From the IMG/VR virus record IMGVR_UViG_2778261458_000007: a stretch of DNA of 39,379 bases, one strand, 5' to 3'. Source of the stretch: a virus. Taxonomy: Duplodnaviria; Heunggongvirae; Uroviricota; Caudoviricetes. The position numbers and the translations under genes were made by a program. Shown here in pieces: positions 5,025 to 36,077 of the stretch. Below the pieces are notes generated by a model. It was given only the letters and a program-made list of their open reading frames with translations. It made no database searches and was not told the origin of the DNA. The first letter of the stretch is position 1; each line of letters begins with the position of its first letter.

Positions 5025-5041
5025 GTTACCGTTGAGGTAAT
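5025..5041. promoter_or_regulatory. Operator site 1 (OL-proximal): GTTACCGTTGAGGTAAT
   Basis: 17-bp palindrome NTTACC-N5-GGTAAN overlapping -10 and +1 of leftward early promoter. Confidence 0.6.
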
Positions 5042-5159: not shown

Positions 5160-5744
5160 TTATTGTTTGTTTTTTTCGTTCTGGTTGATGACAAATTCAA
5201 TGTAACTTTCGATCTTTGCTTTCTCGGTTTCGGGTAACAATGCGTAGCGCGAGCGATCATAGTTGATGGTCGCAGGGTCGTGCGGGTGAATCAGTAATTC
5301 ATAGCCGTGACGCCCGAATGCGGATGCAACATTCTCCAGGGTGGAAATGGAAACGCTGACCTCATTGTTTAACAGGCGGCTGATTGTCACCTGGGCTACG
5401 CCGGATGCGCGGTGAAGTTTTCCCTGTGTTGAAAGGTCGCGGCTTTCGCTCATCCAGCGTTCCAGGTTGTGAGCCGCCAGCTGGCCAATGTCGCTTGGGC
5501 CGACAGGCTGAAAACCTTCCTGAGAAAGCGAGCGATCGATATCAAGCCAGTTACGGGGTTTATTGGCGGCAGCTTCAATTTTTCGTGCAACCTGGTCGCC
5601 GATAACCTTCTTGCCAAGAGCCCAGCGGTTTACCAGATTTGCCTGAGTTCCAAGTTTTTCAGCCATCCGCGTCTGAACACCATTGAATTCACGGTCGATC
5701 AAGTCGTTGAGATTTTGCCTGCGGACGTCCTGGATACTTTTCAT
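5160..5744 (-). CDS. CI-like prophage repressor (tandem HTH, no recognisable S24 peptidase domain)
   Basis: 194-aa ORF divergent from cro-like gene across an operator cluster; two HTH-like segments (QTRMAEKLGTQANLVNRW and GVAQVTISRLLNNE); no Ala-Gly/Ser-Lys cleavage motifs seen. Confidence 0.7.
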   Translation of the reverse strand: MKSIQDVRRQNLNDLIDREFNGVQTRMAEKLGTQANLVNRWALGKKVIGDQVARKIEAAANKPRNWLDIDRSLSQEGFQPVGPSDIGQLAAHNLERWMSESRDLSTQGKLHRASGVAQVTISRLLNNEVSVSISTLENVASAFGRHGYELLIHPHDPATINYDRSRYALLPETEKAKIESYIEFVINQNEKNKQ

Positions 5745-5898: not shown

Positions 5899-6129
5899 AT
5901 GAGCGATAACGGACATTTCGATTTCAAAAAGCACTGGCTTGCACTTACTCCGGATGAGCGTGAAGCCTTCGCACAGGAAGCCGGAACGACGAGTCACTAT
6001 ATCCAGACTCACTTAACAGGTAAGCGCAAAATGCCAGGTAAGGTATTGATGGATGGGCTTTTTAAAGCCTGTAAATCAAGACAATGGCTGCGCTCAAAAG
6101 CAGAACTGGCATACTTCTTCTACTCATGA
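5899..6129 (+). CDS. Cro-like DNA-binding protein
   Basis: 76-aa ORF divergent from repressor; first gene of rightward early operon; followed by intrinsic terminator. Confidence 0.55.
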   Translation: MSDNGHFDFKKHWLALTPDEREAFAQEAGTTSHYIQTHLTGKRKMPGKVLMDGLFKACKSRQWLRSKAELAYFFYS

Positions 6130-6200: not shown

Positions 6201-6279
6201 AAAAAACCAAATATGGTTGATCTTTTTTTTGTGTCAGCACAAAATAACCGTAATCCCAATACTAATAACAGGGCTTACC

Positions 6280-8146: not shown

Positions 8147-8191
8147 AAAATATTCTAAAATCTATTGATTTCGTGTCTTATGTGGTTTTTA

Positions 8192-8210: not shown

Positions 8211-8555
8211 ATGAGAAAACAGATACAGGCTCTTGGTCGACTCAAAACAGGCCAGATGAACAAAACAGAATCTGCGTATTGCCAGCACCTTGAGCAGCGT
8301 AAACGTGCAGGGGAAATCGCCTGGTATCGATTCGAGGGTATCAAGCTGCGGTTAGCTGACAACACGTTCTATACGCCAGATTTCGCTGTGATGCTCGCCA
8401 CCGGAGAGATGGAACTGCACGAAGTGAAAGGTTTCTGGACCGACGACGCCAGGGTGAAAACCAAAGTCGCCGCAGATCAGTATCCGTTCCGAATCATCGG
8501 GGTAACGGTTAAGCCAAAGAAAGCAGGTGGTGGCTGGAACATCGAAGAGTTCTGA
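8211..8555 (+). CDS. DUF1064-like protein (putative nuclease)
   Basis: 114-aa ORF; motif pattern resembles DUF1064 phage proteins; start sits immediately after operator site 8. Confidence 0.55.
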   Translation: MRKQIQALGRLKTGQMNKTESAYCQHLEQRKRAGEIAWYRFEGIKLRLADNTFYTPDFAVMLATGEMELHEVKGFWTDDARVKTKVAADQYPFRIIGVTVKPKKAGGGWNIEEF

Positions 8556-13414: not shown

Positions 13415-13492
13415 GAACTGGAAGCAATGAGTTATGCCTTCCGTGGCTGTACTGGTTTACAGCATGAAGTCATCGCAATGGCGTCCTGCTGT

Positions 13493-13577: not shown

Positions 13578-13654
13578 TGGCGTGGCATGCAGGATTCGAA
13601 CCTGCGACCAACCGCTTAGAAGGCGGTTGCTCTGTCCAACTGAGCTAATGCCAC
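13578..13654 (-). tRNA. tRNA-Arg (anticodon UCU)
   Basis: 77-nt cloverleaf on minus strand: acceptor GTGGCAT/ATGCCAC, D-arm GCTC...GAGC, anticodon stem ACCGC/GCGGT with loop CTTCTAA, T-arm GCAGG-TTCGAAT-CCTGC, encoded CCA; own terminator downstream. Confidence 0.85.
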
Positions 13655-30077: not shown

Positions 30078-30491
30078 ATGAAGGAATTATTGCTGTTATC
30101 GGTATTTTTGATATCCGCTTGCTCGACATCCTATGATGTTTATGACGGTGTTGATAAGGCATATTGCGACAAAGTTAAAATGGATTTTTCTCTTGCCAAG
30201 ACGGCGAAGGATAGTTGTATTGATCACTACGTCAAGACTTATACCAAGCCAGCCTCATCGGCATCTGATATTGCTGAAGGTGCTGTGTTTGAGTGTAACA
30301 AGGTGATATCCATCGCAGCGAGTTCTTCATACGATGCTGCTGTATGTGCAATGGCTGAAAGAAACGGCATGTCAGTGCAAAAAATTAATAGCATGATAAG
30401 CAGTAATGACGAAGCCAAAATAAGAACTGATATCAGCTCGGTGAAAAAAGATGCCATGAACAGAGTTGTAAAATATCAGTCATCTTTATAA
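30078..30491 (+). CDS. Lipoprotein (137 aa), last gene of late operon
   Basis: Signal peptide with lipobox LISAC; RBS AAGGAA; GC visibly lower than structural genes; followed by palindrome and terminator. Confidence 0.55.
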   Translation: MKELLLLSVFLISACSTSYDVYDGVDKAYCDKVKMDFSLAKTAKDSCIDHYVKTYTKPASSASDIAEGAVFECNKVISIAASSSYDAAVCAMAERNGMSVQKINSMISSNDEAKIRTDISSVKKDAMNRVVKYQSSL

Positions 30492-30608: not shown

Positions 30609-31112
30609 TTATACTATTGAGTTTAATGATATCTTGTCCTTAATATCATTAAGTTTGCCATATATCTTTTTTGCATAAAAATCAGCATCCTCAATAAACC
30701 TCGACTTCTCATTATCAGGCATATTTTTGAAGGTATGTGCACATGTATATTGAGAGTAGTATTTGTGAAATTCTTGATACGCATTATTGAGTTCTTGTAA
30801 GTCTTTTTTATACTCAGGAAGGTATATGTTTATTAGCATTTCCATCGTTTGCAACGGATTCGCTCTTGATACGTCAAATTTACTATCAGAGTGGTATCTG
30901 GCATTTTTTACGAAATTGAGAATGGTAATTGTGCTTGAATCTATGACTTTTTTAGTAAGTATACAATTTATAAATAATTGCTCGCATTTATCCCTTAATA
31001 TTTTTTGTCGCTCTAATCTTATGCTGTTTTTGTATCCTTGTCTTGCATTTATATAAGTGGAAACTATAGCAATAACTGCACCTATCAATGCGCCTAAGAT
31101 AGTATTATCCAT
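30609..31112 (-). CDS. Membrane-anchored protein of unknown function
   Basis: Start ATG 31112 with AGGTGG upstream; one N-terminal TM segment (ILGALIGAVIAIVSTYI); AT-rich coding sequence. Confidence 0.5.
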   Translation of the reverse strand: MDNTILGALIGAVIAIVSTYINARQGYKNSIRLERQKILRDKCEQLFINCILTKKVIDSSTITILNFVKNARYHSDSKFDVSRANPLQTMEMLINIYLPEYKKDLQELNNAYQEFHKYYSQYTCAHTFKNMPDNEKSRFIEDADFYAKKIYGKLNDIKDKISLNSIV

Positions 31113-31137
31113 ATAAGCCACCTAAACTGCGTAAAAT

Positions 31138-32001
31138 TTATTTCCTGCCACTTCTGTAGTATATGTTGCGACCATTTTTGGTCACATTAACAACATGACC
31201 CTTTGTTTCTACTTTGTTATTTGTTGCCTTATATACTTCAAAGTCAAACCATGATATATGACTTATTTCGTCTATAGATACCATAATTTCTAGACCTTGA
31301 ACTTTCTTTTTGCTTATCCCTTTTATCGCAGCACTGCGCTTAATTTGGATTTCACCTGGGTAAGCGTTTGTAAATGTAACAGATAAATTTTCTTTGTTTC
31401 TGTACCCTGACATTAAAGGAACAAAAGATATGTGTTGGTGTGGCCCTTGATTTTCCGTTGGCTCACCAGAACCATTTATTATTCCAACGTATACTTTATT
31501 TGATGATAAAGTAATTAACATTGGTTTCTTAGGATCTGATTCGATTGCATCAAGCAATAGCAAATCTAAAGAACCCTGGGAGTACGTTTTTCGCAATACC
31601 CTAGCTTTCATTGCCTCTGATATTTTGTCATAAATATCACGTTTATAAAAACAACCTAAAAGAAGATCTTTTAGCCAAACAAAAGATACATAACACAAAG
31701 AGAAGCAAATTGATGTGACTGACAGAAGAAGTAGCCACATGTAAATTCTATCTGTTTCTGGTTTTGACGTTACATTAAAAGTTTCCACCATATCGTGAAC
31801 TAGGTGAAAATCAGGATATTTATATTTTATAAATGAGGCAATTATTACCGAAGCAACAAGGCAATATGTACCTAATGCAGCTACTTTCATATAAAGAAGC
31901 TGGCCTTCATGTCGGTATAAACGGAAATAATGATACTGGTTAGCGGTTATCATAATATAACCACTAACCAGAATGGGGATAATTAGAAGAGCTAACAACA
32001 C
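31138..32001 (-). CDS. Membrane protein of unknown function (three N-terminal TM segments plus soluble domain)
   Basis: 287-aa ORF; GTG start overlapping stop of upstream 69-aa gene, RBS AAGGA; hydrophobic stretches at roughly residues 1-20, 40-60, 85-105; AT-rich. Confidence 0.5.
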   Translation of the reverse strand: MLLALLIIPILVSGYIMITANQYHYFRLYRHEGQLLYMKVAALGTYCLVASVIIASFIKYKYPDFHLVHDMVETFNVTSKPETDRIYMWLLLLSVTSICFSLCYVSFVWLKDLLLGCFYKRDIYDKISEAMKARVLRKTYSQGSLDLLLLDAIESDPKKPMLITLSSNKVYVGIINGSGEPTENQGPHQHISFVPLMSGYRNKENLSVTFTNAYPGEIQIKRSAAIKGISKKKVQGLEIMVSIDEISHISWFDFEVYKATNNKVETKGHVVNVTKNGRNIYYRSGRK

Positions 32002-32210
32002 TATTTCCTTACAGTGGCAAGATCCTGTTTAACGATTGCAGCAGCGAGACGACGCATCTCCTTAACCTCAGGAAGCTCAGAAATTTGCTGTGATGAGATA
32101 TACACTCCACCACGCTTGTTAACCTGCGCTGACGCCGGAACTTCTGCATTTTTTGCCTGAGGGCTGGGTGCATTATCCCTCGTTTTTGTACGAGCGAACC
32201 AAAATCCCAT
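32001..32210 (-). CDS. Small basic protein (69 aa), first gene of accessory operon
   Basis: Strong RBS AGGAGGAGAT; directly downstream of operator-overlapped promoter. Confidence 0.45.
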   Translation of the reverse strand: MGFWFARTKTRDNAPSPQAKNAEVPASAQVNKRGGVYISSQQISELPEVKEMRRLAAAIVKQDLATVRK

Positions 32211-32235
32211 ATCTCCTCCTCATGTAAACACATGG

Positions 32236-32252
32236 TTTACCTTTAAGGTAAT
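32236..32252. promoter_or_regulatory. Operator site 11 (accessory operon promoter): TTTACCTTTAAGGTAAT
   Basis: Overlaps -10 and +1 of leftward promoter TTGCAG-17-TACTAT. Confidence 0.55.
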
Positions 32253-32279
32253 AGTACGCTATTCACCCCCGGTCTGCAA
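32251..32279 (-). promoter_or_regulatory. Promoter of accessory membrane-protein operon
   Basis: On minus strand -35 TTGCAG (32279-32274), 17-bp spacer, -10 TACTAT (32256-32251) overlapping operator site 11. Confidence 0.45.
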
Positions 32280-32290
32280 TCTGTACAGAA

Positions 32291-32315
32291 TTATTTAAAG
32301 GCACATCCCTGTGCC
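32291..32315 (-). terminator. Hairpin terminator after Bro-N gene
   Basis: Hairpin GGCACA-GGGA-TGTGCC followed on minus strand by TTTAAATAA. Confidence 0.45.
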
Positions 32316-32323
32316 GCCGCCCG

Positions 32324-33034
32324 TCAGAAGAACCCTGCCTTGTCGTTGATGTACTCCGCGTGTGTCTGGATATCACGCAGGCATTTGCTCACACCGACGA
32401 TGTAGCAGAACATGGTGGTCAGCTCCGCCGCTGCGCCCGATACGTCGTGCCCGTCGTCCTGTAACTGGTTCAGCAGATTCATCAGCAGTGAGTTCTCTGT
32501 CAGGCCGAGAACACCAGACGGCGAATGAATCAGGCTGCGGTAGCCGGGCTTCAGTGGGGCGCTGTAGGTTTTGTTCTCTACCTTCATTGCCTGCATCACT
32601 GCTGACGCCGTGGCGTTGGCTACCTGGTCGGCAACCATCTTTATGCGTTCTTCCTGCGGGAGCGAGTTTTTAATGTAGCGTCCGGTGCGGCGGATCTGAG
32701 GAAGAACCTCACCTGTAACCCATTTACGAAAGCGGTAGGGTATAGTGCCTGGTGTCACTGCGTCGCGGCAGCGTAGGATCAGTGTGTAGAGGCCTGACTC
32801 GGAGATGATGTTGATCTCTTTTACTCGGCTGTCAAAAATTGCACGATGTTCATGCCCTATGTTGAACATAGACCTTTCATCATCATCCAGTTTTTCAAGT
32901 GCTTGGGTGACGTTTTGGATACGCAGCGCACTACAAACGTCTTGGGCTACAAACCATGGTTGGCCATCGATAATGATGGAACGGATAGGGTTAACAGATT
33001 CAAATTTGAAGATGGCAGTTTGAGCATTAGCCAT
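32324..33034 (-). CDS. Bro-N domain antirepressor-like protein
   Basis: N-terminal region FVAQDVCSALRIQN...ISESGLYTLILRCRD...FRKWVTGEVLPQIRRTG matches Bro-N-type antirepressors; start ATG 33034 with GGAG upstream. Confidence 0.65.
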   Translation of the reverse strand: MANAQTAIFKFESVNPIRSIIIDGQPWFVAQDVCSALRIQNVTQALEKLDDDERSMFNIGHEHRAIFDSRVKEINIISESGLYTLILRCRDAVTPGTIPYRFRKWVTGEVLPQIRRTGRYIKNSLPQEERIKMVADQVANATASAVMQAMKVENKTYSAPLKPGYRSLIHSPSGVLGLTENSLLMNLLNQLQDDGHDVSGAAAELTTMFCYIVGVSKCLRDIQTHAEYINDKAGFF

Positions 33035-33190
33035 GGTGGTTATCTCCACTTAGTGATTTTAATCACCACCGCAACGCCAATTACTGGTGGTGAACTGGAC
33101 AAGGTTGGCGTACCGGCCTAAGTGGTACCGGCGTCCTTTCGGACCCCTGCCCAGCCCACCATAATTCGGATATAGCTGTGCTTAACGCAT

Positions 33191-33213
33191 AAAAAAACCA
33201 CGTCTGGCGTGGT
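33191..33213 (-). terminator. Intrinsic terminator inside leader upstream of Bro-N gene
   Basis: Hairpin ACCACG-CCAGA-CGTGGT followed on minus strand by T-run. Confidence 0.55.
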
Positions 33214-33302
33214 ATGCGCCACTTAGTAACCCGGGACGCCAATCCCGGCACTGGATTTTGCCAGTGCCTGATTACTATGGCACAAGAGGAGTGCGATGTA
33301 AA

Positions 33303-33319
33303 TTTACCTCAAAGGTAAA
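33303..33319. promoter_or_regulatory. Operator site 12 (antirepressor leader promoter): TTTACCTCAAAGGTAAA
   Basis: Overlaps -10 of leftward promoter TTGCAA-17-TATATT. Confidence 0.55.
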
Positions 33320-33346
33320 TATAAGCACTCCACTTGGTAATTGCAA
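33318..33346 (-). promoter_or_regulatory. Promoter of structured leader/sRNA upstream of Bro-N gene
   Basis: On minus strand -35 TTGCAA (33346-33341), 17-bp spacer, -10 TATATT (33323-33318) overlapping operator site 12. Confidence 0.45.
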
Positions 33347-33349
33347 ACC

Positions 33350-33607
33350 TTATCTGGTTTGTTTTCGTAATTGTTCGGCACAATAGTCGAGATGTGTTTG
33401 CAGCTCCTGCATAGACATCTGTGAGCTGGTGACGTAGTTAATCAGTGCAGTCAGTTCGGCAAGTGGGCCATCGACATTAAATCCATCCTTATCGAGATCC
33501 CGGAGTAATTTCATCAAGTGCGATCCCTCCACCAGTGATCTGACGCCTCCCGGCGTGTGAATCCTTTCGGTAAATCCGTCTTCCAGTGGATAGTGATACT
33601 GCTGCAT
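33350..33607 (-). CDS. Small antirepressor-like protein (homolog of Bro-N protein C-terminal domain), LexA-box associated
   Basis: About 45 percent identity by eye to residues about 150-215 of the Bro-N protein (shared LAELT, QTH..Y); start at second ATG 33607 with GGAG RBS; LexA box 23 bp upstream. Confidence 0.5.
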   Translation of the reverse strand: MQQYHYPLEDGFTERIHTPGGVRSLVEGSHLMKLLRDLDKDGFNVDGPLAELTALINYVTSSQMSMQELQTHLDYCAEQLRKQTR

Positions 33608-33629
33608 CTTAATCTTCTCCATGCAATAA

Positions 33630-33645
33630 CTGTATATTTATACAG
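33630..33645. promoter_or_regulatory. LexA (SOS) box CTGTATATTTATACAG
   Basis: CTGT-N8-ACAG with AT-rich centre; extended match AACTGTATATTTATACAGTA to consensus TACTGTATATATATACAGTA; 23 bp upstream of small antirepressor-like gene. Confidence 0.75.
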
Positions 33646-33683
33646 TAGCAAATAATTTGTTTGCTATCCAGCACGTTTTGCAA

Positions 33684-33700
33684 ATTACCTGAAAGGTAAT
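33684..33700. promoter_or_regulatory. Operator site 13: ATTACCTGAAAGGTAAT (perfect palindrome)
   Basis: In divergent region between LexA-boxed small gene and tailspike gene; preceded by TTGCAA. Confidence 0.6.
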
Positions 33701-33803
33701 ATCTATTCATATTCACAGTCTTTCTATCCATATGTGGTTTTTCAGGTAATAGAATAACCAGATATGCGGCGCAACGGGTGCTGCGACTATCTGGAGATTT
33801 AAC

Positions 33804-36077
33804 ATGACGGTCTCAACCGAAGTTGACCACAACGAATACACCGGTAACGGCGCTACGACATCATTTCCGTATACCTTCCGTATTTTCAAAAAATCCGACC
33901 TGGTTGTTCAGGTGTCTGACCTGAACGGGAACGTAACAGAATTGGTTCTGGATACCGGTTATGCGGTAACTGGGGCGGGCACTTATAGTGGCGGTTCTGT
34001 TGTTCTGCCGTCTCCGCTTGCTGCTGGCTGGCGAATTACGATAGATCGTGTGCTTGATGTAGTGCAGGAGACAGATCTTCGCAATCAGGGAAAATTTTTC
34101 CCCGAAGTGCATGAAGATGCTTTTGACTACCTGACGATGCTGATCCAGCAATGTTTTGGGTGGTTCAGACGTGCATTGATGAAACCATCTTTGCTTGCAA
34201 AATATTACGATGCAAAGCAAAACAGAATTTCTAACCTTGCAGATCCATCACTTGAGCAGGACGCTGTAAATAATCGCTCAATGCGTAATTATGTCGATGC
34301 TGCAATCGCCGGGGTTGTTGGTGGTTTTGGTTGGTTTATTCAGTATGGTTCTGGGGCAGTATACAGAACGTTCCAGGATAAAATGCGTGACATATACAGT
34401 GTCAAGGATTTTGGTGCTATAGGTGACGGTGTGATCAATGATACTGCTGCGATCGCATATGCGTCTGTGAATCAGATGATAGATCTTGGGCGCGGGATTT
34501 ACAAAGTGGACTCCTTGTCACTTGCCCTTGGGGCAATATCGTCTGGAGCTACAATAACCCTTAGCGGACGTCACGAAAATATTATCTCTCCTCTTTTTGC
34601 TGGTGAGTTAATAGGTAATCTTACCATACAGGGGGACTCGCCTGTGACATTAAGTGTCATATCCGCCAGTATTTCATTCTCTAGCACCTTCCAGGTAGAA
34701 TATTATGCAGATGATTTTCGCTCAGCTAAGTACCAGCTTGTAGACGTTCTGTTAAGTGGGGCAGTACAGGTCGGCAATATGCTGCTAATAAGGGCTGACC
34801 AACCAGAGTTGTCAGGCTGTTTCGAAGTGGTTGGTGTTCCTGCTGAAAATACTGCTCGGGTATTGATGCTTGCGCAAGGTTCGCTAGATATAAGTAGTTT
34901 TACCGGAACTGCTAAGGTTCTTACAACAGTTCTTCAGTTTTCCAATATTACCCCGATTGATGTGTCTGGTGGTAATCTGAAACTGGTTAATATCGGCATT
35001 CTTGGTGCTTGTTATCCAGTCAAAAATGGTTCACGTTCAAATGTGTACGATCCTCGTGGAAGCAATGGTGTATCGGGTATTGTTGCGAGAAATGGCGGTA
35101 TTGTGCTCGGCGTAGATTCTGGAATATCAGGAGTTTCAGGGACTCAGCTTGTCGGCGTCGATAGTGGGGAAATTGACTGGACAGGGTGTTTCGTATCTTG
35201 CGGTGGTCGAAATGGAATATCCGCATCATTAGGTAAACTAACCTTCGCAAGTGGCGTAGCCACGCAAAACTTGCTGGACAATGTGATAACGCAGGATCAG
35301 AGTTTCGGTTTTGCAACATCATCAATTTCTGCACATGCAGGCAGGAACGGTTATATCTCTTCAACTAACTCCACCTGCAATTTGTCAGGCAGCAACTCTC
35401 AACAAAACGGATTTATGGATCCTACCAATGGTAATGGTGCCAGTGCTTCCAGTGGAAATCTAACAGTCATTGGATGTCAAATAAAAAACAATGCTAATGC
35501 TGGCATAATAGGGATTGGAAGTTCTGACATTCGTGGGACAGGAATAAATGTCCAATGGAATTCATATGGAGTATTAATGGACACTGCTTCTCATGCATTG
35601 GTTACAGGGATAGTTAATAACAATTCTGTCACCGATTTACTGGCACGTAACCGGGGTAAAATAGAAGCTATTAATGTAACGCACACGACGTCAAAACCAC
35701 AAGTTAACCTTACAGACGGAACTGGAGCATTGGTTCAGAATACATCCGGAATTGATGATTTTCGTACCTCTGGCGGGCTGGAAGTTGCCGGAGGTGGAGT
35801 TATAAAAAAGGTTATCCGAATGCGAGTTACAGGTGTCGATTTTCCAACTGTTCCTGCTGGTAGCCAGCAATCGGTATCGGTATCAGTGCCTGGCGTCATA
35901 TCGTCTTATGAAAACGTAGTAATAGTGCAGAGAGACTCTACTAATAACAGGTCTGGATTGATGTATGAAGCAATTGTATCTTCAGATAATACTGTGCTTA
36001 TAACTTGTAATAACTTCTCTACATCAGAGATAGACCCTCCTGCTGAAAACTTCAATCTGGTTGTTTTTTCTTTCTAA
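33804..36077 (+). CDS. Tailspike protein (N-terminal particle-binding domain plus beta-helix receptor-binding domain)
   Basis: 757-aa ORF; N-terminus MTVSTEVDHNEYTGNGATTSFPYTF typical of podovirus tailspikes; VKDFGAIGDGVINDTAAI motif typical of pectate-lyase-like beta-helix. Confidence 0.8.
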   Translation: MTVSTEVDHNEYTGNGATTSFPYTFRIFKKSDLVVQVSDLNGNVTELVLDTGYAVTGAGTYSGGSVVLPSPLAAGWRITIDRVLDVVQETDLRNQGKFFPEVHEDAFDYLTMLIQQCFGWFRRALMKPSLLAKYYDAKQNRISNLADPSLEQDAVNNRSMRNYVDAAIAGVVGGFGWFIQYGSGAVYRTFQDKMRDIYSVKDFGAIGDGVINDTAAIAYASVNQMIDLGRGIYKVDSLSLALGAISSGATITLSGRHENIISPLFAGELIGNLTIQGDSPVTLSVISASISFSSTFQVEYYADDFRSAKYQLVDVLLSGAVQVGNMLLIRADQPELSGCFEVVGVPAENTARVLMLAQGSLDISSFTGTAKVLTTVLQFSNITPIDVSGGNLKLVNIGILGACYPVKNGSRSNVYDPRGSNGVSGIVARNGGIVLGVDSGISGVSGTQLVGVDSGEIDWTGCFVSCGGRNGISASLGKLTFASGVATQNLLDNVITQDQSFGFATSSISAHAGRNGYISSTNSTCNLSGSNSQQNGFMDPTNGNGASASSGNLTVIGCQIKNNANAGIIGIGSSDIRGTGINVQWNSYGVLMDTASHALVTGIVNNNSVTDLLARNRGKIEAINVTHTTSKPQVNLTDGTGALVQNTSGIDDFRTSGGLEVAGGGVIKKVIRMRVTGVDFPTVPAGSQQSVSVSVPGVISSYENVVIVQRDSTNNRSGLMYEAIVSSDNTVLITCNNFSTSEIDPPAENFNLVVFSF

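What the first reader, a model, noticed from the sequence alone, without database searches (positions are those of the whole stretch)
33350..33645. Canonical LexA box controlling a small antirepressor-like gene, suggesting antirepressor-mediated SOS induction
A near-consensus SOS box CTGTATATTTATACAG (33630-33645) lies 23 bp upstream of the best start of an 85-aa gene. That gene is homologous to the C-terminal domain of the adjacent Bro-N antirepressor. The CI-like repressor shows no S24 autocleavage domain. Together these fit the induction mode known for coliphage 186 (Tum) and Salmonella Gifsy prophages: LexA cleavage derepresses a small antirepressor that inactivates a non-cleavable repressor. 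Operator site 13 lies about 40 bp further upstream, so the gene may be under dual LexA and repressor control.
Basis: partly seen in the sequence, partly recalled or inferred. Interest (0 to 1): 0.8.

Follow-up and report, generated by a model that had tools for sequence, protein, structure and literature searches.

The report
LexA-controlled phage antirepressor, already known

Summary
A near-consensus LexA box (33630-33645; 18/20 to TACTGTATATATATACAGTA) lies 22 nt upstream of the ATG of an 85-aa gene (33350-33607, minus strand). The window is a phiV10/epsilon15-like podophage (Uetakevirus). The 85-aa protein is about 87% identical to the crystallised antirepressor Ant of Salmonella phage SPC32H (PDB 5D50_E, E=2e-46). 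The window's repressor (5160-5744, minus) is the SPC32H Rep homologue (5D50_A, E=4e-42). It has helix-turn-helix (HTH) domains only, and no S24 protease homologue exists anywhere in the window. The LexA box sits in the same column in nine relatives. SPC32H and its variant SPC32N differ by one base inside this box. The interpretation (LexA cleavage, then Ant, then inactivation of a non-cleavable repressor) is therefore supported by orthology to a published system (Kim & Ryu 2013; structure 2016). It works like 186 Tum and the Gifsy antirepressors but is not their homologue. Tight dual LexA plus Rep control is unproven. Extra finding: the adjacent Bro-N protein carries an Ant-like C-terminal domain and is preceded by isrK-like and C4 antisense RNAs. 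Their target sites covary across phages, as in the P1 immI region. Novelty: already known. Interest: low.

The parts
33630..33645 (.). LexA (SOS) box CTGTATATTTATACAG; the extended 20-mer is 33628-33647
   Evidence: unique in the window, 0.02 expected. Conserved column for column in 9 Uetakevirus relatives. Homologous to the SPC32H box that is mutated in SPC32N.
33642..33670 (-). Proposed ant promoter: -35 TGGATA (33670-33665), 17-nt spacer, extended -10 TGcTACTGT (33650-33642), +1 near 33635. The LexA box spans about -10 to +6.
   Evidence: Read. TGGA.A, TG and TA.TGT are invariant in 9 phages. This is inference: the consensus scan did not call it, and there is no transcript mapping.
33350..33607 (-). 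ant: 85-aa SPC32H-type antirepressor (SD GGAG at 33620-33617)
   Evidence: PDB 5D50_E 'Anti-repressor protein', E=1.8e-46, 83 aligned residues at about 87% identity. 83% identical to epsilon15 gp19. PHROG 450.
33685..33699 (.).
   Evidence: The half-sites ATTACC/GGTAAT are invariant in 9 phages. The homologous site is annotated as a predicted repressor-binding site in the epsilon15 RefSeq record.
5160..5744 (-). rep: 194-aa non-cleavable repressor, the presumed target of Ant
   Evidence: PDB 5D50_A 'Repressor', E=4e-42 over residues 1-190. Pfam finds HTH_3/HTH_26 only. No S24 homologue in any six-frame ORF. Flanked by operator pairs at 5026/5088 and 5800/5848.
33304..33318 (.). Operator-like palindrome abutting the -35 of the isrK promoter (TTTACA 33302-33297, 17 nt, TG-CATAGT 33279-33274)
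33191..33267 (-). isrK-like small RNA with its terminator; carries the a1 (33242-33236) and b1 (33226-33219) sites
   Evidence: Rfam RF01394, 67.7 bits against a gathering score of 50. Complementarity shown. Covariation shown.
33083..33166 (-). C4 antisense RNA; b' loop CCACTTAG at 33125-33118, a' ACGCCAA at 33111-33105
   Evidence: Rfam RF01695, 66 bits against a gathering score of 45. Pairs with a2 (33080-33074) and with b2 (33053-33046), which overlaps the Bro-N SD. Three-way covariation across 5 phages.
32324..33034 (-). Bro-N::Ant-like-CTD antirepressor paralogue (236 aa from ATG 33034)
   Evidence: Pfam Bro-N, E=1e-19. C-terminal residues 160-236 match 5D50_E at E=2.3e-13. PHROG 130 and PHROG 450. 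The ZX5 orthologue lowers lysogeny when overexpressed.
32237..32251 (.). Perfect operator-like palindrome TTACCTTTAAGGTAA downstream of the Bro-N gene

Best explanation
This is the SOS-induction module of a phiV10/epsilon15-like temperate podophage and is orthologous to the Rep/Ant system of Salmonella phage SPC32H. In the lysogen, host LexA binds the box at 33630-33645. The box overlaps the -10 and start of the ant promoter and keeps ant silent. Meanwhile the two-HTH repressor Rep (5160-5744) holds the lytic promoters at its ATTACC-N5-GGTAAT operators. DNA damage leads to RecA-stimulated LexA self-cleavage, which derepresses ant. The 85-aa Ant then binds Rep and dislodges it from DNA. Rep itself has no autocleavage domain. 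Shown here: the sequence elements, the orthology, the conservation and the absence of S24. Inferred from the orthologue and not tested here: LexA binding, Ant-Rep binding, and the requirement of ant for induction. A second antirepressor paralogue (Bro-N N-terminus fused to an Ant-like C-terminus) lies downstream. It is under P1-immI-like C4 antisense RNA control and probably provides a separate anti-immunity input.
For: Ant matches 5D50_E at E=1.8e-46. Rep matches 5D50_A at E=4e-42. Rep has HTH domains only, and no S24 homologue was found in any frame. The LexA box is unique in the window and 18/20 to consensus. The box, the SD-ATG and the promoter-like hexamers are invariant across 9 phages from Escherichia, Salmonella, Enterobacter and Klebsiella, in a region with 60% mean column identity. 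Synteny is the same, with ant divergent from the tailspike gene. SPC32H and SPC32N differ by ACAG to AAAG in the homologous box; from my memory of the Kim & Ryu 2013 abstract, this is the mutation that makes Ant constitutive. A review states the LexA-to-Ant-to-repressor scheme and cites that paper. Another paper says tetrameric Ant binds two Rep dimers and breaks the Rep tetramer. The close relative ZX5 is inducible by mitomycin C.
Against: No experiment exists on this phage or on any E. coli member for the small gene; the ZX5 study tested only the Bro-N paralogue. Rep is only 42% identical to epsilon15 Rep, while Ant is 83-87% identical to its orthologues, so the Ant-Rep fit is inferred. The promoter is assigned by eye, because the consensus scan did not report it. 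The primary SPC32H papers could not be read.
Confidence: 0.87

Rival explanations
1. Dual control. Rep bound at the operator 33685-33699 also represses ant, so ant needs both LexA cleavage and Rep relief. Rep relief by Ant would then give positive feedback.
For: The operator and its 54-55 bp centre-to-centre spacing to the LexA box are conserved in 9 phages. Perfect operators bracket ant at 33304 and 33685, and Rep is reported to act as a tetramer with two DNA-binding pairs, so a loop is conceivable. The epsilon15 record annotates the homologous site as a predicted repressor site.
Against: The operator lies at about -64 to -50 of the best promoter candidate, which is not an occluding position. 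The same layout, an operator followed about 30 bp later by ATATGTGGTTTTT, also occurs upstream of the rightward gene at 8211 (operator 8131). This suggests the operator serves the rightward tailspike promoter. Tight Rep repression of ant would block SOS induction. A single-base change in the LexA box is the only regulatory difference between SPC32H and SPC32N although both keep the operator; from memory of the abstract, it suffices for constitutive Ant.
Confidence: 0.25
2. The Bro-N::Ant-like protein, not the small Ant, is the main inducer in E. coli members. The small gene would be redundant or would act mainly in trans on other prophages.
For: Overexpressing the ZX5 Bro-N orthologue lowered prophage titre 1000-fold. 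Its C-terminal domain is homologous to Ant.
Against: The Bro-N cassette is absent from SPC32H, epsilon15, BUCT554, BUCT711 and PAT1, which all keep ant and the LexA box. It has no LexA box of its own. It is held off by C4 antisense RNA pairing over its SD, as expected for an anti-immunity function rather than an SOS sensor.
Confidence: 0.08
3. The palindrome is a chance or non-LexA site, and the small gene is unrelated to induction.
For: None beyond the lack of direct experiments on this phage.
Against: 0.02 such sites are expected by chance. The site is invariant across genera. The protein is 87% identical to a crystallised antirepressor.
Confidence: 0.02

Closest known systems
Salmonella phage SPC32H Rep/Ant antirepression system (Kim & Ryu, J Virol 2013; Kim et al., PNAS 2016; PDB 5D4Z, 5D50)
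   Same: Orthologous Ant (about 87% identity) and Rep. The LexA box sits at the same position overlapping the ant promoter. The genome position is the same, between the injection-protein operon and the divergent tailspike gene. Same phage genus, Uetakevirus.
   Different: Rep is much more diverged (42% identity to epsilon15 Rep). The LexA box is closer to consensus here (CTGTATAAATATACAG versus CTGTATGTTTATACAG). This phage also carries the isrK-C4-Bro-N::Ant-CTD cassette downstream of ant, which SPC32H lacks.
Coliphage 186 Tum and Salmonella Gifsy/Fels-2 LexA-controlled antirepressors (Shearwin et al. 1998; Lemire et al. 2011, PMC3121763)
   Same: The logic is the same: LexA represses a small antirepressor gene, the repressor is non-cleavable, and SOS acts through protein-protein inactivation of the repressor.
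   Different: No sequence relationship was detected: Ant has no Pfam family and only the SPC32H chain matches in the PDB. The phage type differs (podovirus). From the literature, the mode of action is disassembly of a Rep tetramer by an Ant tetramer.
Phage P1/P7 immI region (c4 antisense RNA - icd - ant), applying to the adjacent Bro-N paralogue only
   Same: A C4 RNA matches Rfam RF01695. Two complementary target sets lie upstream (a1/b1) and downstream (a2/b2) of it, and b2 covers the ribosome-binding site of the antirepressor gene. A repressor operator sits at the operon promoter. Many operators are scattered over the genome.
   Different: There is no icd-like ORF between C4 and the antirepressor gene. 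The upstream target set forms a separate terminated isrK-like sRNA. The antirepressor has a Bro-N N-terminus and an SPC32H-Ant-like C-terminus.
Gifsy-1 isrK-orf45-anrP locus (Hershko-Shalev et al. 2016, PMC4825925)
   Same: An isrK sRNA with a leaky terminator lies upstream of an antirepressor-like gene that is transcribed but translationally silent.
   Different: Here the stretch between isrK and the antirepressor gene scores as a C4 RNA. The downstream output in Gifsy-1 (the antiterminator AntQ) has no counterpart that was examined here.
Phage P22 immI (mnt-arc-ant)
   Same: An antirepressor gene sits next to the tailspike gene of a short-tailed temperate phage.
   Different: P22 ant is controlled by Mnt and Arc, not LexA, and P22 c2 repressor is RecA-cleavable; the review says a P22 ant mutant stays SOS-inducible. 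Arc/Mnt homologues were not searched for specifically.

Membership tests
SPC32H-type LexA/Ant/Rep antirepression module | Small (~86 aa) Ant protein homologous over its full length to SPC32H Ant | tested here: met
   phmmer against the PDB: 5D50_E, E=1.8e-46, residues 7-89 of the 90-aa ORF aligned to 3-85 of 86. tblastn gives 86.7% identity to the SPC32H ant gene.
SPC32H-type LexA/Ant/Rep antirepression module | Rep homologue with HTH domains plus a C-terminal tetramerisation/Ant-binding region, and no S24 autocleavage domain | tested here: met
   5D50_A, E=4e-42 over residues 1-190 of 194.
SPC32H-type LexA/Ant/Rep antirepression module | LexA box overlapping the ant promoter | tested here: met
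   The box at 33630-33645 aligns column for column with the SPC32H box, which carries the SPC32H/SPC32N difference. The overlap with the -10 hexamer is read from the sequence and is inference.
SPC32H-type LexA/Ant/Rep antirepression module | LexA binding and SOS-dependent Ant synthesis; physical Ant-Rep complex | not testable with these tools
   Needs EMSA, reporter and pull-down experiments. Only mitomycin C inducibility of the relative ZX5 is reported.
186 Tum / Gifsy antirepressor protein families | Sequence homology to Tum or to the Gifsy antirepressors | tested here: not met
   No Pfam family above threshold for the 85/90-aa protein, no NCBIfam model, and only the SPC32H chain in the PDB. 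The function is analogous, but this is not family membership. Tum and the Gifsy proteins were not compared pairwise.
Lambda-type SOS induction by repressor autocleavage | Repressor with a Peptidase_S24 domain (Ser/Lys dyad, Ala-Gly site) | tested here: not met
P1/P7 immI-type C4 antisense control (for the Bro-N paralogue) | C4 RNA whose a'/b' segments pair with two target sets, the downstream set masking the RBS of the controlled gene | tested here: met
   RF01695 at 66 bits. b' CCACTTAG pairs with b1 and b2 (CTAAGTGG), and b2 overlaps the SD. Compensatory changes in b1/b'/b2 and a1/a'/a2 occur across window, phiV10/ZX5, Tyrion and a Klebsiella phage.
P1/P7 immI-type C4 antisense control (for the Bro-N paralogue) | An icd-like ORF translationally coupled to ant | tested here: not met
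   C4 ends at 33083 and the Bro-N ATG is at 33034. No ORF fits between them.

The most novel reading that the evidence does not exclude
The two antirepressors may form a cascade. No strong intrinsic terminator separates ant from the isrK element, so the SOS-induced ant transcript could run into and include the isrK a1/b1 sequence. That RNA would then act as a decoy for C4 antisense RNA, or as an IsrK-like activator. This would unmask the ribosome-binding site of the Bro-N::Ant-like paralogue and couple LexA cleavage to a second, RNA-gated dose of Rep-binding domain. A related possibility follows from Ant being far more conserved (83-87%) than Rep (42%): Ant could cross-induce epsilon15-like prophages whose Reps have diverged.
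Probability: 0.15. Interest if true: 0.5.

Novelty: already known. Interest (0 to 1): 0.2.

Why it matters
The finding mainly matters as an annotation fix. This ant-tailspike segment occurs in 534 of 5,426 complete E. coli genomes, and there, as in most phage records, the gene is called 'hypothetical protein'. Pfam and NCBIfam have no model for it, and its PHROG is labelled 'unknown function'. Yet its function and structure are established for the Salmonella orthologue. Recognising it explains how phiV10-like prophages of pathogenic E. coli (O157, ExPEC) sense DNA damage, including antibiotic-triggered SOS, without a cleavable repressor. A second antirepressor with the same Rep-binding-type domain sits beside it under antisense RNA control. 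That pairing is a modest but testable extension.

Tried and rejected
1. The two primary SPC32H papers (J Virol 2013, PNAS 2016) could not be read because they are not held. Statements about them rest on citing papers, on the PDB molecule names, and on my memory of the 2013 abstract, which I mark as memory. The SPC32H/SPC32N sequence comparison was used as an independent check of that memory.

2. The sigma-70 consensus scan did not call an ant promoter. TTGCAA-17-ACAAAT and TTGCTA-17-TATTGC were considered and rejected because their -10 elements are poor and not conserved. TGGATA-17-TGnTACTGT was kept because all of its key bases are invariant.

3. Three other CTGT-N8-ACAG matches exist, at 299, 13447 and 17990. 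They were rejected as LexA sites because none comes within 3 mismatches of the 20-mer consensus. The site at 299 lies inside the long ORF at 1-1251.

4. A hidden S24 repressor elsewhere in the window was sought and not found.

5. Membership in the Tum/Gifsy protein families was rejected for lack of any detected homology.

6. My first guess for the C4 a' segment (GACGCCGGT, with G:U pairs) was replaced by ACGCCAA after the covariation analysis.

Full report
**1. What the window is**

The region 32000-34200 is 97.6% identical to Escherichia phage HEMP4, 95% to vB_EcoP_ZX5 and 91% to phiV10. The first 25 kb are 97.8% identical to phiV10 over 92% of their length. The window is therefore a phiV10/epsilon15-like temperate podophage of the genus Uetakevirus. 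It starts with a long 416-aa ORF at 1-1251, where close relatives are annotated with an integrase, which fits a prophage.

The finding lies between the injection-protein operon (ending at 30491) and the tailspike gene (33804-36077, plus strand). In that interval a block of minus-strand genes is inserted.

**2. Checking the observation**

- **LexA box.** CTGTATATTTATACAG is at 33630-33645. The 20-mer AACTGTATATTTATACAGTA is the only site in the window within three mismatches of the LexA consensus. It has one mismatch over the 18 specified bases, against 0.02 sites expected by chance. Three other minimal CTGT-N8-ACAG matches (299, 13447, 17990) fail that test.
- **The gene.** It is on the minus strand. 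The mechanical ORF is 90 aa from ATG 33622. The 85-aa start at 33607 has GGAG nine nucleotides upstream. GGAG-N9-ATG is invariant in nine relatives, while the upstream ATG is missing in Klebsiella phage BUCT711. The 85/86-aa form is the one annotated in phiV10, ZX5 and SPC32H.
- **Distances.** The stated distances hold: 23 bp from box to start, and 40 bp from box to the operator at 33685-33699.
- **Homology to the Bro-N protein.** The small protein is 40% identical over 78 residues to the C-terminus of the adjacent Bro-N protein, E=9e-16.

**3. What it is**

The small protein matches one solved structure: chain E of PDB 5D50, named 'Anti-repressor protein', 86 aa, at E=1.8e-46. By my count, 72 of 83 aligned residues are identical. 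tblastn gives 86.7% identity to the gene annotated ant in Salmonella phage SPC32H.

The window's immunity repressor is at 5160-5744 on the minus strand (194 aa). It sits between operator pairs and faces a small, unannotated divergent ORF (5899-6129). It matches chain A of the same entry ('Repressor') at E=4e-42 over its whole length. Pfam finds only helix-turn-helix families in it. A --max phmmer search with LexA, UmuD and lambda CI against every six-frame ORF of the window found nothing better than E=0.4. The phage therefore encodes no S24-type self-cleaving repressor.

**4. Conservation**

I aligned the ant-tailspike intergenic region of the window with eight relatives: phiV10, SPC32H, epsilon15, Tyrion, BUCT554, PAT1 and two Klebsiella phages. 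Mean column identity is 60%, but several blocks are invariant or nearly so:

- the LexA box arms, although the Klebsiella phages have ATGT for CTGT;
- a TGGA.A hexamer 17 nt upstream of a TG-n-TA.TGT element;
- the SD and ATG;
- the operator half-sites ATTACC/GGTAAT.

I read these as an extended -10 promoter: -35 at 33670-33665, -10 at 33647-33642, and +1 near 33635. The -10 hexamer ends with the CTGT of the LexA box, so LexA would occlude the -10 to +6 region. This assignment is inference. The consensus scan did not report it.

**5. Link to experiment**

The primary papers (Kim & Ryu, J Virol 2013; Kim et al., PNAS 2016) are not held. The following sources stand in for them:

- A review states that in S. 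enterica prophages LexA self-cleavage leads to synthesis of an antirepressor that inhibits the repressor by protein-protein interaction, citing Kim & Ryu 2013.
- Another paper summarises that SPC32H Rep binds DNA as a tetramer, and that tetrameric Ant binds two Rep dimers and breaks the tetramer.
- From my memory of the 2013 abstract, SPC32H and SPC32N differ by two nucleotides. One lies in the LexA site overlapping the ant promoter and makes Ant constitutive.

I checked that memory against sequence. In the 1,065 bp compared, the two phages differ at exactly two positions. One changes the box from CTGTATGTTTATACAG to CTGTATGTTTATAAAG, and the other lies in the tailspike gene. The window's box aligns with that site.

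The close relative ZX5 is inducible by mitomycin C, from 1e7 to 1e9 PFU/ml.

**6. Mechanism**

LexA represses ant. SOS-triggered LexA cleavage allows Ant synthesis. Ant binds Rep and removes it from its operators, and lytic growth follows.

- *Shown here:* all sequence elements, the orthology, the conservation and the absence of S24.
- *Inferred from the orthologue:* LexA binding, Ant-Rep binding and the requirement of ant for induction.

My confidence is about 0.87. The system works like 186 Tum and the Gifsy antirepressors. It is not a member of those protein families, because no homology was detected.

**7. Dual control**

The palindrome at 33685-33699 belongs to a family of about 13 TTACC-N5-GGTAA sites, where 0.46 are expected by chance. 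These sites cluster around rep (5026/5088 and 5800/5848) and in front of other transcription units. The epsilon15 RefSeq record annotates the homologous sites, including the one between gp19 (the ant homologue) and the tailspike gene, as predicted repressor-binding sites. The site is thus very probably a Rep operator.

Whether it controls ant is unresolved. Three points argue against tight control:

- It lies at about -64 to -50 of the proposed promoter, which is not an occluding position.
- The same layout, an operator followed about 30 bp later by ATATGTGGTTTTT, also occurs upstream of the rightward gene at 8211 (operator 8131). This points to the tailspike promoter instead.
- Tight Rep repression of ant would defeat SOS induction.

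A weak effect that gives positive feedback remains possible (confidence about 0.25).

**8. The neighbouring cassette (outside the finding but relevant)**

An Rfam search at gathering thresholds finds two RNAs between ant and the Bro-N gene:

- an isrK-like sRNA at 33191-33267 on the minus strand (67.7 bits);
- a C4 antisense RNA at 33083-33166 on the minus strand (66 bits).

A promoter-like TTTACA-17-TG-CATAGT (33302-33274) would start transcription at the isrK 5' end. The operator at 33304-33318 abuts its -35.

The C4 loop CCACTTAG (33125-33118) is complementary to CTAAGTGG in two places. One is in isrK (33226-33219). The other is at 33053-33046, overlapping the SD of the Bro-N gene, whose real start is ATG 33034. 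C4 ACGCCAA (33111-33105) is complementary to TTGGCGT at 33242-33236 and at 33080-33074.

These pairings covary across five phages:

| Phage | b1/b2 target | C4 b' loop |
|---|---|---|
| window | CTAAGTGG | CCACTTAG |
| phiV10 and ZX5 | CTAAAAGG | CCTTTTAG |
| Tyrion | CTACAAAGG | CCTTTGTAG |
| Klebsiella ST11-OXA245phi3.2 | CTAAACGG | CCGTTTAG |

For the a sites, TTGGCGT/ACGCCAA in the window becomes TTGGTCT/AGACCAA in Tyrion.

This is the logic of the P1/P7 immI region (c4-icd-ant), but without icd. It also resembles the Gifsy-1 isrK-orf45-anrP locus. The cassette is present in the window, phiV10, ZX5, Tyrion and one Klebsiella phage. It is absent from SPC32H, epsilon15, BUCT554, BUCT711 and PAT1.

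The Bro-N protein's C-terminal residues 160-236 match SPC32H Ant at E=2.3e-13. Overexpression of its ZX5 orthologue lowered the prophage titre 1000-fold. The phage therefore carries two proteins with the same Ant-type domain. One is gated by LexA. The other is gated by a probable Rep operator plus antisense RNA.

**9. Novelty and value**

The finding as stated rediscovers a published, structurally solved system in an E. coli relative, so it is already known. Its practical value is annotation:

- The Ant family is confined to 35 Uetakevirus-like records in the phage collection and is mostly labelled 'hypothetical protein'.
- The ant-tailspike segment (query 33050-33810) occurs in 534 of 5,426 complete E. 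coli genomes, where the gene is annotated 'hypothetical protein'.
- There is no Pfam or NCBIfam model, and PHROG 450 is labelled 'unknown function'.

Two observations are not obviously covered by what I could read:

- Ant is far more conserved (83% to epsilon15) than Rep (42%). This could allow cross-induction.
- The downstream RNA-controlled paralogue might be coupled to SOS through read-through of the ant transcript into isrK. Only a hairpin without a U-tract intervenes. This idea is speculative (probability about 0.15).

Noticed in passing
window 33083-33267 (minus strand): An isrK-like sRNA (33191-33267) and a C4 antisense RNA (33083-33166) lie between ant and the Bro-N gene. Two target sets (a1/b1 in isrK, a2/b2 over the Bro-N SD) covary with the C4 loops across five phages. 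This is a P1-immI-like antisense switch without icd.
   Followed up: yes
window 32324-33034 (minus strand): The Bro-N 'anti-repressor' is a fusion of a Bro-N domain with a C-terminal domain homologous to SPC32H Ant (E=2.3e-13). It is not the usual KilAC/ANT domain. Its likely start is ATG 33034 (SD GGAG at 33047-33044), not the GTG at 33049 listed by the ORF tool.
   Followed up: partly
window 5026, 5088, 5800, 5848, 6185, 8131, 8193, 10811, 10829, 13978, 32237, 33304, 33685: About 13 copies of the palindrome TTACC-N5-GGTAA are scattered over the genome, often in pairs 62 or 48 bp apart. The layout recalls the multi-operator arrangement of P1 C1. The half-sites are the same in epsilon15 and SPC32H although Rep is only 42% identical to epsilon15 Rep, so these phages might share immunity specificity.
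   Followed up: partly
window 6202-6214 (-), 8178-8190 (+), 33730-33742 (+): The motif ATATGTGGTTTTT recurs immediately next to operator sites or half-sites and is conserved between ant and the tailspike gene in nine phages (as AAACC.TATATG on the other strand). It may be part of a promoter or an activator or IHF site. It remains unexplained.
   Followed up: no
window 33350-33607 versus 5160-5744: Ant is 83% (epsilon15) to 87% (SPC32H) identical to its Salmonella orthologues, while Rep is only 42% identical to epsilon15 Rep. An antirepressor more conserved than its target hints at a conserved Rep surface or at cross-induction between related prophages.
   Followed up: partly
window 33050-33810 compared with E. 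coli RefSeq genomes: This segment is present in 534 of 5,426 complete E. coli genomes. The ant gene there is annotated 'hypothetical protein'. Pfam and NCBIfam have no model for it, and PHROG 450 is labelled 'unknown function'. This is an annotation gap for an experimentally characterised family.
   Followed up: partly
window 13578-13654 (minus strand): A tRNA-Arg (anticodon TCT) gene lies inside the phage. A weak CTGT-N8-ACAG match (13447-13462) and an operator (13978) are nearby.
   Followed up: no
window 30609-32210 (minus strand): Three minus-strand ORFs (170, 287 and 69 aa) lie downstream of the Bro-N gene and have no significant Pfam hits. This block differs among relatives (ZX5 and phiV10 carry other genes here) and could be a moron or defence cargo slot.
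   Followed up: no
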